A program made the position numbers. Shown here piece by piece: positions 56,701-62,700 of a stretch of 64,000 nt of DNA; position 1 is the stretch's first letter, and each line of letters begins with the position of its first letter. The stretch is from Carcharhinus amblyrhynchos (lineage: Eukaryota): positions 8,866,001-8,930,000 of the forward strand of contig CBDIYR020000001.1 of the NCBI GenBank assembly GCA_965287045.1. The letters are read 5' to 3'.

Positions 56701-59700
56701 AATGACCGGATAGACGACGAAAAAGTAGATGCTATGTAGGTAGATAGGTAATAAACAGGTAGATAGTAGCCTGATAGATAGGCAGGCACATAATTCATAG
56801 ATAATTCATAGATAGATAGATAGATAGACGAGTACTATAAGACATCTAGATTGCGGACACATGTTGAGGTCAACACAATTTTAGTAGCGATATGAAAATG
56901 TTAACACTTCTCATTTCCTCAGAAAGTTAATTAATCTAGTATGATTCTGCAAGAGATTCCGCCCACGATCATGCTCGCCCTAAAATTTAAGCATACTAAT
57001 AAAAAACGACTGCTTTTTTTATATCAGTCCAATTCGGTTGGCGTTAATAACGGAAGAAAACACAGGTGAGGTTTTAGCGTTATAAACATTGGCGAAATAC
57101 CTAGAAATGAAGAGCAGAGGAAAACAAAGAGAGCAGCTGTCTGCATCTTACACACTGGAGGTTGAATCTGCTATTGGATCGTTTGCAGGCAGCAGTCGAT
57201 AAAACTGACTTCAGGACGTGACGACAGAAGAATCTGGGTTTCCTGTTGACTCGTCAATTCCTGTATTAAGGGTTAAAACGGCACCAGTCGCCGTGCGTGC
57301 CCTGGTTGTGCAAATGGTTCATGGGGCTAGGTTCGCTTCGATAGACCCATCGAGGCAGGACCCATGTCTGGATAAAAATATTGCGAAAGGGTTGACAGGC
57401 CGAGTCGCGCACGTCTTGGGGGAGAAATAAGGTGGAGGTACCCGTAAAACCATCAAAAGTTTGATTGCCATCTCTGGTGAAGCCAAAGGTATAAAATGGC
57501 CTCCCCTTAATGGCCAAGGCAGGCTAGTACATTCCTGGAGTATTCACATCTGGGGTTAATGGCTTGCTCGCTAGCAGCTTGGGCGCCCTGTTTCTCAGGA
57601 CCGCAGCTGGGGTTGCCACACAGAATGTGATACAGTGACTAAGGCAGAGCAACAATGTAAATTGCATTGGATACAATTTATTGGTTGCTTCATACTATAA
57701 TCCAGCACTCGCCGAAAAGCTGTCGAAGCAGGTTTAAATAACTTCAGAGCCCGCTGTCGATGGAGGAAAAGTAAATACCCAGAATTGCATTCGCTCCATC
57801 AGAGAAATGACAACATTTCTGTGAGCCAACCAACAATACGTTTGGCCGCTTGCACTTATAAGTGGAACAACTTGGAGGAGGACAGATTCTCACTCACTGC
57901 CCAGAGTTTGAGAAATCCTGCAGTCAAAGAACGTTTCATAGAATCATAGAATCATAGAGCCCTACAATGCAGAAAGAGGCCCTTCGGCCTATCGAGTCTG
58001 CAACGAACACAATCCCACACCCGCCCCTGCCCTACAAATTATACCCACTAATCCCTCTAACCTACAGGATGTCTGTACTTCCGTTCTCGATTCTGTTGCT
58101 GCTGCTACCGACGAAACTGGCCTCTGATGTGTCAGTAATCTTGACTGTCATTGCCCTGCGCGCCCGATTAGGGGTTAATCCACTTTCTATGCTAATTCCA
58201 AGACGTTTTAAATTGTAGATTTCACCTCTCTGTGTTTGCCGCCTCTGTGTCTATTTGTCACTCTGTCTCCCTCTCCCTGTCACTCCGTTCCTCTCTCTGA
58301 CGATTTATCTACTAATTTCCTTCTTTAGGCTTCCTACCTTCCTTCGCCCGACTGTCTCTCAGTGCTCTGTGTGTTTCTCTCTTTATACCACTCGAGGCCT
58401 TCTGTGGCCAATCCCCTCCCCTTCGTTTTACCTGAGGTTCCCGCTATCTCCATCTGATTCTCTCATTCTACCCTTCTCTCTTTTCACCTGGTTTTCTCTG
58501 TTTATCTCTCTATCACGGCCTCGCTGCTCCGCTCTCAGTCTCACACCTCTTCTCACCCCCAGGCCTACCACTGCCTATTTTTATATCCCTTTGAAGTATT
58601 CAAAGTTTATATATCTGCCTTTTCACTCTCTGATTTACAGAAGTGGCGGCCATACTGGTCAATAGATTCCAGCTTTCATATCCAGTTCCCGGGCCACCCC
58701 AATCAGCCTCAAATGCCTTCACATTAAAGAAGATGGTAGCAGCTGGTGTTGATGGTATCTGGCCATCTCTTCTTTGAGCATAGCACTTCATTCACCCTTT
58801 TTTTTTGCTTCCAGGTTTTGACGACAATCTGTTCTTATCTCATTGAAGCCCCCTTTACTCCAGTTCATTGTCCTTTTCCATAGTCACCATAAAACTTCTA
58901 TACAGTGATCACGATCCCATATATGTTCCCTCTCTGACACTTGATGGCACATAGAGTGACACCGCAGTTATAACACAGTCGAGGCAATTCGGCCCAAGTG
59001 CCTTGTGCCATCATTTATCCTCCACATTAATCCCCTCTCACCCTACTTTATCTGAGGATATTAACATAGCAAATAATAAAGGCATCTCTGGTTTTGGATA
59101 ATTTCTTATCAAATAATACACTATCCCAGATTCTGTTGGCCCAAATCTTCCTTTGCCCGCAGAGTCGTACCCCAGTGTAATCCACGAGAGACGCTGACGA
59201 TACCCTTGGGAATCCCGAGGAAGTTTGAACTCCCGCTAGGCTAGTACCCTGCATTTGAAATCATCCGATAGACAGGTTTAAAGTTGAGAGTTCAAATTTG
59301 TCCAAGTCTCTTAGCGCAATAGCTTCTCAGGAAAAGTCAGAAGTATTAAAACCACGTTTAACTCCTGTGTAAAGATATGACGAATATTCTCCCCCACCCC
59401 CCAACACTGGACCCCTTTGCCATCCCAAATGACCTAACTCCTTCCCTTCATACCGCCGACTAATAACCAATTAACGCTACGGGCACCTGATTACACTCCA
59501 CCTCCTTACTGACCCCCTTGCTGCCAACCGTGAACAGGCCACCCTACCCCTCCGCCCCACCTCTCTTCCCGATAGAACGTACCCACAAACTAAATGCACA
59601 TAACTATCTCAGGGACATTTGAACCGAGGCCCTTACGGCAGCTAGAGGAAAAAACACGCTGGGTAAGTATAAAGCAACGGAGTGGCAGTATGATTGTGGG

Positions 59701-62700
59701 CGCCATACCTCGGAAGTCTGGGGCTGTAGCTATCCAATCATTTGCGTAGATTTTTGATACCGTGATACTATTTTTACTCCAACCATATTGAGTTCAAGCT
59801 ACCAGATCATTGGAGTTTAAAAATATTCATTATAAACGCTCAACAAAATGCAATGATGTATAACCTACCCAAATGCAATCTGACTGCTTGTCCATTGACC
59901 CTAGTGTCTCAACATTTGGAACATAGTTACGGAGCTCTTTCGAAAGCATGATAAGAGGAGTAATGAAGAAATGCAGAGAGAGGCAGGTAAATAAGAGAGT
60001 GGAAGGGACAAGAAGAGAAACGGGCGCGAGAGAAACAAAAGGAAAATTAAGAAAGTAGTATCTGACACACCACCAAATAAATTTAACCCGGATTTAAGAG
60101 TGAATGCCTTCGCAAGCTCTGCATTCCAAGCGAAAAAGCTTTTTGATTATCCGCGACTGACATACATTCTGCATATTGTGCGAGAATGCAACTGAGCACC
60201 CATTTTGTCAATAATTTCATTAGATTTATTCTAATGCGTAGAAATGGAACGAAGATTTGCCCGTGCACTTTAGAGTCTGGTTGGCAGCTGCTGAACATTT
60301 CCCGAATTTAACGTTAGCCTGTCCCAACAGCACGCCACCCCCCCGCCCACCTCCTCCCCACGATCCCCTGCCACACGCCGCGCCCACTCCCCAAGAGATT
60401 TCCCGGACTCTCCAAATGGTTGAAACTACCCATCACTGGAAACCTGAAATAAACCTCCCCTCCATGTCTCCTCGTCAGAAGATGTCGCAGGGAGCTGACG
60501 TCACGAGCAGCTATATCCTTTAATGCTCCTTGAGAAATTGATGCTGTTATTTTCTGGCCAACGACTGGATTACTAAAACATGTCAGGGGATAGTCAGTCA
60601 ACCACATTTGCCTATGGCGGATCATGCAGAAGGCAGGCCGAGTAATGATAGCAGATTTGGTTTTCTTCGATATTAGTAAAACAGACTGGCTTTTCCGGAA
60701 ATCCAGTAGTGTCATGCACATTAATACTGAAAACAGGCTCTTTATTGCAGATTTGATTCTATTTGCTGCCAGGATATGGTATGAAACCCTTGTCCATGAA
60801 TCAATTAGCCTAGCATTCTGTACTAATAGACCAGCAACATTACTACGATTCTACATTAGGATAACAAACAGCACTGTCTGCAGAGAGCTAAAGCAGGGAT
60901 CGGTAGACTAATGGATAAAATTGTTTGGCGGATCCAGACTAAATCCACCACTCGGAAGCTGGTGACGTCGGTTTAAGCTAACTTTAGAATCAGTTGGCGA
61001 AGGTCGAAACGTAAATGCGTCGAGTCGCATTAGCTCCACCCCGGAAATGACATGTTGTCCCAACCCACTATAAAGTGATCGCAAGCATTTATCCGTTGAA
61101 CAACTTAGAGGAGATATCCATTATCCAGAATTTGAGAAATCCTGCAGTTAAATACCCTTTAAAGATGTATAGGTCTGGGCTCTGGGGCTTGTTGCTGCTG
61201 TTACCGGGTAAGGTGGAACTGGCCTCTGAGTTGCCAGTGAGCTTCACTGTTTTTGCGTTGCGTGTCCCAGTTAGGGGTTAACCTCCGTTCTGAGCTGCTT
61301 AACATCGCTTGAAGATGTAGATTCCCTCTGTCCTTCTTTGTTGCCATAGTCTCTGTTTGTCACTGTTTTTCTCTCCCTGCCACTCTGTTTCTCCCTTTAG
61401 GCTTCTTTGCTTATGGATTTCTCTAGTTTGACCCGACCTTCGTCCGCTTGTCTCTCAGTGTATTTCCTCTGTTCCTCCCTTTTTCTTTCCATTCATGATC
61501 TATCGATTGTTCTTGGTTTTCTCTCTGTTCCTGCCCCTCCTTCTCAGTTTGTCTTTGTTTCTCTCATTCTCGCCTGGCACTCTTTGCCTGCTTTTCTGTC
61601 TTTCTCTATCTCTATATCATTGCCTTACTCTCCCACTCTCATTCTTGTCTCAGCTCTCTTTCCCTTTCTGTCCTTGCAACCCCTCAAAGGGTGTCAAGGT
61701 TAATATCTGTCTTTTCTCTCTGTTTTACAGATGTGGCGGCGGTGCTGGTCCAACAGACTCCACCTTACATATCCAGCTCCCCGGGCACTGCAGTCAGTAT
61801 CGAATGTCATTGCATAAAAGCAATGTTTACCTCCTCTTTCAATTGGTATCGATGGCATCCTGATCGTGCTCCTCAGAACCTTTTCTACGCCTATGGCACA
61901 GAGATCACTCCCAAAGGGGAGGTGGACGGATTCACCGCCAGAAAATCGGACAACACTCACTTTTACCTGGAGTCTTCAAGCCTGCGGGCCAATCCCTCAG
62001 CCATGTATTACTGCGCCTGGAGTTTACACAGTGGCTCAGAAAGATGCATGAGTTCGGCTAAAAACCCAAGTGGATCCGAAAAAATAATAGGAGTTACAAC
62101 CATCTCTTTATCTATCTATCTATCTATTATCGATGTATCCAAATGTCATAAATTGCCGAACTATCAACATCTTTATTTACCTAACTAATGGCATGCATCA
62201 GGTTTCAGTATTTAGACATGTAATATAATGCTGTTTTTTTGATTTATTTTATTAACATTGAATCACCATCTCTTTTACTTAACATTATAATATACATTTT
62301 TTTAAGCATTCCATTCAGGAATTTCCGACAAGGCAGTGTCTGCATTTTACAAACAATTTTCGAGGTGGGGTAAATTGGTTAGTTCTATGGCTGAAAGAAG
62401 GGACAAGGTATAGAACAAGCAGTTACACAGCTCGCGACTATGCAATTGGGTATTTCCCAAGCTTGCCGGCCCAATACGGGGAGGCAATGGCCAAATGTTA
62501 CTATCGCTAGATTCTTAATCCAAAAACCGCTAATGCTCTAGGGGCCTGGACTCGATTCGCACCACGGCAGATGGTGGAATTTGAATTTAAGTTTAAAAGA
62601 TCAGGAATTAAGAATATATTGACCATGAAACGATTGTCAGAAAAAAAACATCTGCTTTACTAATGCCCTTTAGGGAGGGAAATCTATAATCCTTATCTTG

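What the first reader, a model, noticed from the sequence alone, without database searches (positions are those of the whole stretch)
57620..62065. Orientation switch inside the V array: intact inverted V upstream of D-J-C
Seen: V genes up to 57146 are on the minus strand like D-J-C. From ~57.7 kb they are on the plus strand, head-to-head with the CASS V, including an intact gene with a good 23-RSS. Known: opposite-orientation segments join by inversion, and the mammalian inverted V (TRBV30, also CAWS) lies 3' of C. Inference: using this V would invert ~31.6 kb and retain the intervening V genes and the signal joint on the chromosome rather than excising them.
Basis: partly seen in the sequence, partly recalled or inferred. 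Interest (0 to 1): 0.7.

Follow-up and report, generated by a model that had tools for sequence, protein, structure and literature searches.

The report
Inverted V gene in shark TCR-beta
A shark T-cell-receptor beta gene cluster has, at the far end of its V-gene row, two V genes facing the opposite way, one of them intact; this is a real but fairly ordinary layout that probably needs DNA inversion rather than deletion to be used.

Summary
The window is an elasmobranch, not human, TCR-beta cluster on the minus strand. It holds C exon 1 (~15.2 kb), eight J (26.0-30.0 kb), one D (30425-30437) and six V (43.4-57.1 kb). At 57147-57667, in gap-free sequence, orientation flips. Two plus-strand V units follow. 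One is a truncated pseudogene (57.7-58.8 kb). The other is intact: leader 61165-61207, V exon 61731-62026, RSS CACAGTG-23-GCTAAAAAC at 62027-62065.

Joining this V to the 5' D RSS would invert 30438-62026 (31,589 bp as assembled) and keep the six V genes and the signal joint on the chromosome.

No data show that this V uses this D-J-C. The plus-strand V is an old, selectively maintained lineage: dS about 0.7 to the minus-strand relatives, dN/dS about 0.35. The window ends 1.9 kb past its RSS. A second, oppositely oriented D-J-C beyond 64 kb, as in pike and salmonid head-to-head TRB loci, is therefore not excluded.

Inverted V segments and inversional joining are well known (TRBV30, Ig kappa, teleost TRA/TRD, newt TRB). 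I found no published shark TRB map. I rate this a new member of a known kind, of modest interest.

The parts
61165..61207 (+). V61 leader exon (L-part1): ATG plus 43 nt, followed by GTAAG donor, phase 1
61208..61730 (+). V61 leader intron (523 nt, C/T-rich), ends TTTTACAG
   Evidence: homologous to the V58p intron (65% over 664 nt)
61731..62026 (+). V61 V exon, intact, ends ...YYCAWSL
   Evidence: V-set 1.9e-10; 64-65% identity to two elasmobranch-type V regions; dN/dS 0.34-0.37
62027..62065 (+). V61 23-RSS: CACAGTG, 23-nt spacer, GCTAAAAAC
60912..61160 (+). V61 upstream (promoter/5'UTR) block, homologous only to the V58p upstream block
   Evidence: (67.8% over 270 nt)
57668..58759 (+). V58p: plus-strand pseudogene unit. 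Upstream block 57668-57936; repeat insertion 57953-58066; ATG 58069; donor lost; V-exon fragment 58615-58759 frameshifted and truncated; no RSS
57147..57667 (.). Interval that contains the orientation switch, between the V56 ATG and the start of V58p upstream homology. Unique in the window, no N
56286..57146 (-). V56: intact CASS-type V (V exon 56325-56621; RSS CACAGAG-23-ACAAAAAAG 56324-56286; ATG 57146), head-to-head with V58p
54746..55094 (-). V54: CAWS-family pseudogene (in-frame stop, no Cys23); heptamer at 54782; abuts N run 54510-54742
51558..51929 (-). V51: open frame but Trp41 replaced by Cys; RSS CACAATG-23-ACAGGAGTC (poor nonamer); no leader found
48744..49700 (-). V48: intact CAWS-family V (leader 49700-49658; V exon 48783-49076; RSS CACGGTT-23-ACAAAAACC)
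46489..47554 (-). V46: intact CAWS-family V (leader 47554-47512; V exon 46531-46821; perfect RSS); intron holds N run 46905-47085
43446..44399 (-). V43: intact CAWS-family V, D-proximal (leader 44399-44357; V exon 43485-43781; perfect RSS)
30386..30465 (-). D segment GGGACAGGGGGGA (30437-30425) with 5' RSS TCTTTTTGT-12-TACCGTG (30465-30438) and 3' RSS CACAGTG-23-ACAAAAACC (30424-30386)
26046..30005 (-). Eight J segments (FGxGTxLxVLG plus GT donor), each preceded by a 12(+/-1)-spacer RSS-like element
14900..15193 (-). C exon 1 (C1-set; ...EHEVQDATVTVFEPS...)

Best explanation
The window shows a genuine head-to-head junction between two old sub-arrays of TCR-beta V genes in a shark-type genome. 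The intact plus-strand V (V61) is a working TRBV. Relative to the only D-J-C in view it is inverted and 31.6 kb from the D.

I commit to the reading that it is used, at least part of the time, by inversional V-to-DJ joining with this cluster. RAG would pair its 23-RSS (62027-62065) with the 5' D 12-RSS (30465-30438). The 30438-62026 segment would flip, and the V coding end would fuse to the D(J). V43-V56 would end up upstream in the opposite orientation, and a heptamer-to-heptamer signal joint would stay on the chromosome next to 62027.

Shown: orientation, intactness, RSS types and directions, the distance, and purifying selection on the V. Inferred: that recombination with this D actually happens, and how often.
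For: All components are present and correctly oriented.

V61 has an intact leader, splice sites and V-set domain. Its heptamer is perfect, its spacer is 23 nt and its nonamer keeps the A-tract.

dN/dS of V61 against the intact minus-strand relatives is 0.34-0.37 at dS 0.68-0.73. Pairs that include the defective V51 and another minus-strand CAWS V give 0.74-1.02. The gene has therefore been kept functional for a long time.

In 62.07-64.0 kb I found no plus-strand D, J or C: no RSS, no J motif, no C match.

V61 is close to the D (31.6 kb). Inversional joining of expressed inverted TRBV is documented in newts (PMC12698447, passages) and for the 3' inverted TRBV of amniotes (PMC11754216, PMC10464911, passages). 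Inversional joining between oppositely oriented clusters is documented for zebrafish IgL (PMC3014032, passages).
Against: There is no rearranged transcript, signal joint or repertoire read for this V; none could be looked for with the collections open here.

Only 1.9 kb lies beyond its RSS, so a plus-strand D-J-C further right is not excluded.

In non-coding parts the plus-strand units resemble only each other. V61 is the outgroup to all minus-strand CAWS V genes. That fits a separate array as well as it fits an old inversion.

The nonamer matches only 6/9, whereas V43 and V46 match 9/9.

The only published 5'-side inverted TRBV I found are parts or remnants of head-to-head duplicated loci (PMC10464911).
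Confidence: 0.48

Rival explanations
1. The two plus-strand V genes are the outermost V genes of a second TRB cluster lying to the right of the window on the plus strand. The overall layout would be [C-J-D-V]-[V-D-J-C], as in northern pike and salmonids. V61 would then join by ordinary deletion to its own D, and the window's D-J-C would not be its normal partner.
For: [quoted passage not shown] Small complete V-D-J-C translocons repeated within about 120 kb exist in cod (PMC13149839), and the window's cluster is similarly compact: 6 V, 1 D, 8 J, 1 C in about 42 kb. The two plus-strand units share promoter, leader and intron homology with each other but not with the minus-strand units. V61 is the deepest branch of the family in the window: dS 0.68-0.80 against 0.18-0.43 among minus-strand copies. 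It groups weakly (83/89) with sequences from other sources rather than with its neighbours.
Against: No D, J or C is seen on the plus strand within the 1.9 kb available. There is no mirror symmetry across the axis: V56 (CASS type) faces V58p (CAWS type). A second cluster would not prevent inversional use of the nearer D.
Confidence: 0.35
2. V61 is an intact-looking but unused relic, an 'ORF' gene. It could be a remnant of a lost second cluster, like the two inverted TRBV on rainbow trout chromosome 19.
For: Its neighbour V58p is already a wreck. Its nonamer is only 6/9. Trout has such remnant inverted TRBV without a D-J-C (PMC10464911).
Against: dN/dS is 0.34-0.37 over dS about 0.7, with leader, splice sites, Cys/Trp/Cys and heptamer all preserved. 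The defective V51 shows 0.74-1.02 against the other minus-strand CAWS V genes. The pairwise ratios average both lineages, so recent loss of use is not excluded.
Confidence: 0.1
3. The orientation switch is an assembly artefact, caused by a chimeric join or a foldback.
For: V arrays are repeat-rich. Two N runs lie in the array.
Against: The junction and both plus-strand units lie in one N-free stretch, 54743-64000. Flipping that whole stretch would still leave a head-to-head V pair inside it. The inverted copies are only about 70-75% identical, not near-identical as in foldback chimeras or collapsed repeats. The 57147-57667 interval matches nothing else in the window that could seed a false join.
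Confidence: 0.05

Closest known systems
Mammalian TRBV30 / mouse Trbv31 and the 3'-inverted TRBV of other amniotes
   Same: A functional TRBV in opposite transcriptional orientation to D-J-C, with a 23-RSS, that can only join by inversion. The V region ends in CAWS, as TRBV30 clonotypes do.
   Different: Those lie 3' of the last C (PMC10464911, PMC11754216, PMC5278385 passages). This one lies 5' of the D, beyond the whole same-orientation V array, so inversion would carry the other V genes with it. No V-like sequence was found in the 14.8 kb 3' of C here. Orthology with the TRBV30 clade was not tested; four shared residues are weak evidence.
Head-to-head duplicated TRB loci of northern pike and salmonids, and the two orphan inverted TRBV of rainbow trout chromosome 19
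   Same: A V array on one strand abuts V genes on the other strand, with D-J-C on the outside (PMC10464911).
   Different: The second D-J-C is not visible here. The two arms are not mirror images, and the family split is old (dS about 0.7). The taxon is cartilaginous fish, so any such layout arose independently or is far older.
Inverted TRBV clusters of the newt Pleurodeles and the axolotl
   Same: Several inverted TRBV genes near C-J-D units are expressed and therefore rearrange by inversion (PMC12698447 passages).
   Different: The newt clusters are interspersed among or next to six C-J-D units, and a distant same-orientation V cluster lies beyond trypsin genes. Here there is a single D-J-C in view and no trypsin-like gene was noticed.
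Ig kappa inverted V genes and teleost TRA/TRD V genes
   Same: V genes 5' of J in opposite orientation, joined by inversion with retention of the intervening segments (PMC3014032 and PMC13149839 passages).
   Different: These are different loci with V-J rather than V-DJ joining. There the retained segments allow secondary rearrangements. Here only one D is in view, so that benefit is not evident.

Membership tests
TCR-beta V gene segment (TRBV) | V-set Ig domain with first Cys, conserved Trp and YxC | tested here: met
   Pfam V-set 1.9e-10; alignment shows IEC, WYRW and YYC
TCR-beta V gene segment (TRBV) | Split leader with phase-1 intron | tested here: met
   ATG 61165, donor GTAAG at 61208, acceptor AG at 61729-61730. 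Exons were read separately and not joined.
TCR-beta V gene segment (TRBV) | 23-spacer RSS directly 3' of the V coding end | tested here: met
   CACAGTG-23-GCTAAAAAC at 62027-62065
TCR-beta V gene segment (TRBV) | Linkage to a D with 5' 12-RSS and 3' 23-RSS, J segments with 12-RSS, and a C-beta-like C1 domain | tested here: met
   D GGGACAGGGGGGA with both RSS. All 8 J have an RSS-like element, 7 with a 12-nt and 1 with a 13-nt spacer. C exon 1 is C1-set 1.1e-19 and matches many TCR beta chains in the PDB, E 1e-14 to 1e-17, alongside other C1 domains. The D-core resemblance to D-beta of other vertebrates is recalled, not tested.
TCR-beta V gene segment (TRBV) | Found in rearranged V-D-J-C transcripts | tested here: inconclusive
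   A 65%-identical relative (P0002, unnamed source) is a rearranged V-D-J-C fragment. Nothing near-identical to V61 was found in proteins of 53-172 aa or, via C exon 1, in proteins of 189-2000 aa.
Inverted V segments that join by inversion (TRBV30 type) | Opposite orientation to D-J-C, with its RSS pointing the same way as the partner RSS | tested here: met
   geometry worked out from coordinates
Inverted V segments that join by inversion (TRBV30 type) | Position 3' of the last C gene | tested here: not met
   V61 is 5' of D and distal to the V array. No V lies in 1-14,800.
Inverted V segments that join by inversion (TRBV30 type) | Membership of the '3'-inverted TRBV' clade | not tested
   No amniote TRBV sequences were available as stored proteins. 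Only the CAWS ending is shared.
Inverted V segments that join by inversion (TRBV30 type) | Rearranged products and retained chromosomal signal joints in lymphocytes | not testable with these tools
   Needs repertoire data or thymocyte DNA
Head-to-head duplicated TRB loci [C-J-D-V]-[V-D-J-C] | Two V arrays abutting in divergent orientation | tested here: met
   V56 ATG at 57146 (minus strand) faces the V58p unit from 57668 (plus strand)
Head-to-head duplicated TRB loci [C-J-D-V]-[V-D-J-C] | A second D-J-C on the far side of the second V array | not testable with these tools
   The window ends at 64,000. None lies in 62,066-64,000.
Head-to-head duplicated TRB loci [C-J-D-V]-[V-D-J-C] | Paralogy of the two arms (inverted duplication) | tested here: inconclusive
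   The same CAWS family is on both sides. However, there is no mirror order, non-coding parts are not alignable across the axis, and dS is about 0.7.

The most novel reading that the evidence does not exclude
Cartilaginous-fish TRB loci carry functional V genes in both orientations on the 5' side. The CAWS-type lineage, present here on both strands, would be the same ancient lineage that survives as the lone inverted TRBV30-type gene 3' of C in amniotes. Inversional V-to-DJ joining at TRB would then date back to the common ancestor of jawed vertebrates, and the position of the inverted V would have moved later.
Probability: 0.07. Interest if true: 0.6.

Novelty: new member of a known kind. Interest (0 to 1): 0.3.

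Why it matters
If V61 is used with this D-J-C, it would be an example of inversional V(D)J joining in a cartilaginous fish. One paper suggested inversional rearrangement may be lacking at shark IgL, whose segments share one orientation (PMC3014032, passage). It would also add a data point on how old dual-orientation TRB architecture is. In practice, anyone annotating this locus or mapping shark TRB repertoires must not assume that all V genes lie on the D-J-C strand. Rearranged alleles that use this V would carry a 31.6-kb inversion rather than a deletion. The mechanism itself is textbook, so the gain is comparative rather than conceptual.

Tried and rejected
1. Third plus-strand V unit at 63.4-64.0 kb. 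A short resemblance to the V58p/V61 5'UTR did not hold up in alignment. nhmmer found no further V.

2. CTCF-like motifs that might mark a boundary: 1 match against 0.93 expected. No signal.

3. Germline signal joint as a sign of a RAG-made germline inversion: 5 matches at 3 mismatches against 2.1 expected. None lies at the switch; one is simply the V56 coding end and heptamer. Rejected.

4. Inverted repeats flanking an inversion in 54743-64000: only the V exons themselves and GATA microsatellites.

5. V-beta promoter decamer (a recalled motif): 45 matches against 50.6 expected at 1 mismatch. There is one exact GTGACGTCA 661 bp upstream of the V61 ATG and a one-mismatch copy 195 bp upstream. 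This is not significant and I do not use it as evidence.

6. GC skew changes sign near 58 kb. However, skew does not track gene strand elsewhere in the window, so I drew no inference.

7. The C exon 1 search among longer proteins found nothing. I therefore did not spend the last database search on V61 'longer'. Any full-length chain from this species would already have matched through C exon 1, which leaves only lengths of 173-188 aa unexamined.

8. Rfam: no match in the window.

9. A pattern search for the C transmembrane exon found nothing convincing. C exons 2-4 are not annotated.

10. One paper, PMC3222143 on nurse shark TCR, is not held.

11. Collections of vertebrate contigs are not available.
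Full report
**What the window is**

The window holds a compact T-cell-receptor beta (TRB) cluster on the minus strand.
- C exon 1 lies at about 14900-15193. It is a C1-set domain (Pfam 1.1e-19). In the PDB it matches many TCR beta chains at E 1e-14 to 1e-17, together with other C1 domains.
- A pattern scan gave nine J-like matches, all on the minus strand. Eight are real J segments of the form ...FGxGTxLxVLG followed by a GT donor, between 26046 and 29978. The ninth, at 19713, has no donor and I dropped it. Each of the eight is preceded by an RSS-like element ending in GTG; 7 have a 12-nt spacer and 1 a 13-nt spacer.
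- A single D, GGGACAGGGGGGA (30437-30425), carries a 5' RSS TCTTTTTGT-12-TACCGTG and a perfect 3' RSS CACAGTG-23-ACAAAAACC.
- After a 13-kb stretch with no V come six minus-strand V units at 43.4-57.1 kb.

The closest protein to the plus-strand V exon is a hypothetical V-set protein of the cloudy catshark, Scyliorhinus torazame (64% identity, E 3.5e-36). Next is an unnamed record that is a rearranged V-D-J-C fragment (65%). The repeats in the sequence also look shark-like to my eye; that impression is recalled and was not tested. I do not take this contig for human.

All protein searches used single exons.

**Check of the observation**

tblastn and an nhmmer profile of the V exon plus RSS give the same census. 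Seven copies of one family, whose V regions end in CAWS, have E<=1e-21; the next hit has E=0.059.
- Five are on the minus strand: V43, V46, V48, V51 and V54, named by their kb position.
- Two are on the plus strand: V58p and V61.
- A V of a different family, ending in CASS (V56, 56325-56621, ATG at 57146), is on the minus strand. It is the last V before the switch.

Status of each V:
- V43, V46, V48, V56 and V61 are intact.
- V51 is open but has Cys in place of the conserved Trp, a poor nonamer, and no leader found.
- V54 has a stop codon and lacks the first Cys.
- V58p is frameshifted, truncated after about 150 nt of V exon, has lost the leader splice donor, has a repeat inserted between its promoter block and ATG, and has no RSS.

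V61 has a 43-nt leader (61165-61207), a GTAAG donor, a 523-nt intron, a phase-1 acceptor and an open V exon (61731-62026). Its RSS is CACAGTG-23-GCTAAAAAC. The heptamer is perfect. The nonamer matches 6 of 9 positions, or 7 of 9 if read with a 24-nt spacer, and keeps the A-tract. V43 and V46 have 9 of 9. 'Good' is a fair description of this RSS; 'perfect' would not be.

The switch falls between 57147 and 57667.

**Is it an artefact?**

The only N runs are 46905-47085 and 54510-54742. I neither filled them nor looked them up. The head-to-head pair V56/V58p and V61 all lie in one N-free stretch, 54743-64000. A wrongly oriented scaffold piece therefore cannot create the switch; flipping the piece would merely change which V counts as inverted.

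The oppositely oriented copies are 66-75% identical in the V exon. Foldback chimeras and collapsed repeats give near-identical copies. The 57147-57667 interval matches nothing else in the window. I give an artefact about 5%. The 31,589-bp span is 'as assembled', because it crosses both N runs.

**Geometry**

On the minus strand the D-proximal side reads nonamer-12-heptamer-D. The V61 RSS, read on that same strand, is nonamer-23-heptamer followed by the V coding end. The two signals therefore point the same way, and a join inverts the DNA between them rather than excising it.

The breaks fall at 62026|62027 and 30437|30438. The segment 30438-62026 (31,589 bp) flips. V61 lands on the minus strand next to the D(J), with V58p behind it. 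V56 to V43 end up further upstream on the plus strand. The 5' D heptamer is fused to the V61 heptamer as a retained signal joint.

**How old and how constrained is V61?**

| Comparison | dS | dN/dS |
|---|---|---|
| V61 vs V43, V46, V48 | 0.68-0.73 | 0.34-0.37 |
| V61 vs V51 | 0.80 | 0.47 |
| V43-V46 | 0.18 | 0.80 |
| V46-V48 | 0.38 | 0.39 |
| V43-V48 | 0.43 | 0.45 |
| V51 vs V43, V46, V48 | 0.27-0.37 | 0.74-1.02 |

The V43-V46 pair has few changes, so its ratio is noisy. V61 is the deepest branch of the family in the window, and it has been under purifying selection.

A small protein tree puts V61 with the two outside sequences rather than with its neighbours. Support is weak (83/89, about 99 columns).

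In non-coding DNA, V61's upstream block, leader and intron align only with V58p (65-68%). They do not align with the minus-strand units, which resemble one another. The switch therefore separates two old sub-arrays. It is not a recent flip of one gene.

**What it most likely is**

Two readings fit.

(a) V61 is an inverted member of this cluster and joins by inversion.

(b) The plus-strand V genes are the outer edge of a second, oppositely oriented cluster whose D-J-C lies beyond 64 kb. In that case V61 joins mainly by deletion.

[quoted passage not shown] Rainbow trout chromosome 19 keeps just two inverted TRBV as a remnant of a lost fourth locus (PMC10464911, passages). Cod has three small TRB translocons within about 120 kb, all forward (PMC13149839, passages).

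Nothing in 62,066-64,000 is a D, J or C, but 1.9 kb is too little to decide. The readings are not exclusive. V61 is only 31.6 kb from the window's D, and inversional joins between oppositely oriented clusters are documented for zebrafish IgL (PMC3014032, passages).

Weighing this, I put 0.48 on V61 being used by inversion with this D-J-C at least part of the time. I put 0.35 on it serving only another cluster, 0.10 on an unused relic, and 0.05 on an artefact.

**Comparison with what is known**

Inverted V segments that join by inversion are well known.
- The single TRBV 3' of C in mammals and duck, and five such genes in tuatara. These form their own clade (PMC11754216, PMC5278385, PMC10464911, passages).
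- Three inverted TRBV clusters in the newt, expressed and therefore rearranged by inversion (PMC12698447, passages).
- About half of the V-kappa genes in mouse and human, and teleost TRA/TRD V genes (PMC3014032 and PMC13149839, passages).

V61 differs from the TRBV30 type in position. Four shared residues do not show orthology, and I could not test it.

For sharks, seven full-text searches turned up no map of a chondrichthyan TRB locus. A review says only that cartilaginous-fish TCR genes are in 'translocon arrangement' (PMC6795676, passage). The elephant shark genome paper discusses TCR linkage in its main text but refers the details to Supplementary Note XI, which I could not open. A published map may therefore exist outside the held library or in supplements.

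For every paper cited I saw only search listings and passages returned by term look-ups, not whole texts.

**Verdict**

I class this as a new member of a known kind, of modest interest (0.3).

The boldest reading that remains open is that dual-orientation TRB V arrays, and perhaps the TRBV30-type lineage itself, go back to the common ancestor of jawed vertebrates. I give it about 7%.

Noticed in passing
window 7197-8009 (-): Reverse-transcriptase fragment (Pfam RVT_1, 5.8e-19) about 7 kb 3' of C exon 1. This is a LINE-type remnant, not part of the receptor locus.
   Followed up: partly
window 48776-48782 (-): V48 is intact and has a perfect nonamer, but its heptamer is CACGGTT (5/7). It may recombine poorly despite the open frame.
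   Followed up: no
window 46905-47085 and 54510-54742: The two N runs sit inside the V46 leader intron and directly after the V54 RSS region. Their true lengths affect the 31.6-kb figure. They were not filled or looked up.
   Followed up: no
window 36862-36900 (-): An isolated 23-RSS-like site, CACAATG-23-ACAAACACG, lies in the V-less 13 kb between D and V43. No V-like coding sequence is next to it. It is either chance or the relic of a lost V.
   Followed up: partly
window 56793-56828 and 62103-62138: GATA/TATC microsatellites lie in the V56 intron and 40 bp beyond the V61 RSS. They form an 83% inverted pair. This is probably coincidence of a common repeat.
   Followed up: no
window 57953-58066, 42025-42131, 1718-1837: Copies of one short interspersed repeat (74-81% identity). 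One is inserted between the V58p promoter block and its ATG.
   Followed up: no
window 60496-60504: The only exact GTGACGTCA (CRE-like palindrome) in the window lies 661 bp upstream of the V61 ATG. The motif is not enriched overall: 45 matches against 50.6 expected at one mismatch.
   Followed up: partly
protein P0002 (unnamed source): A 146-aa record is a rearranged V-D-J-C fragment that uses a V of the same family and a J reading YFGDGTKLVVLG. That J is close to the window's J at 29193 (YFGDGTKLTVLG). Its C start differs from the window's, so it comes from another species or gene.
   Followed up: partly
window 26046-26121 (-): An eighth J (TFGAGTRLVVLG) sits 1.3 kb 3' of the other seven. It is easy to miss. 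The J-to-C intron is then about 10.9 kb and full of repeats.
   Followed up: no
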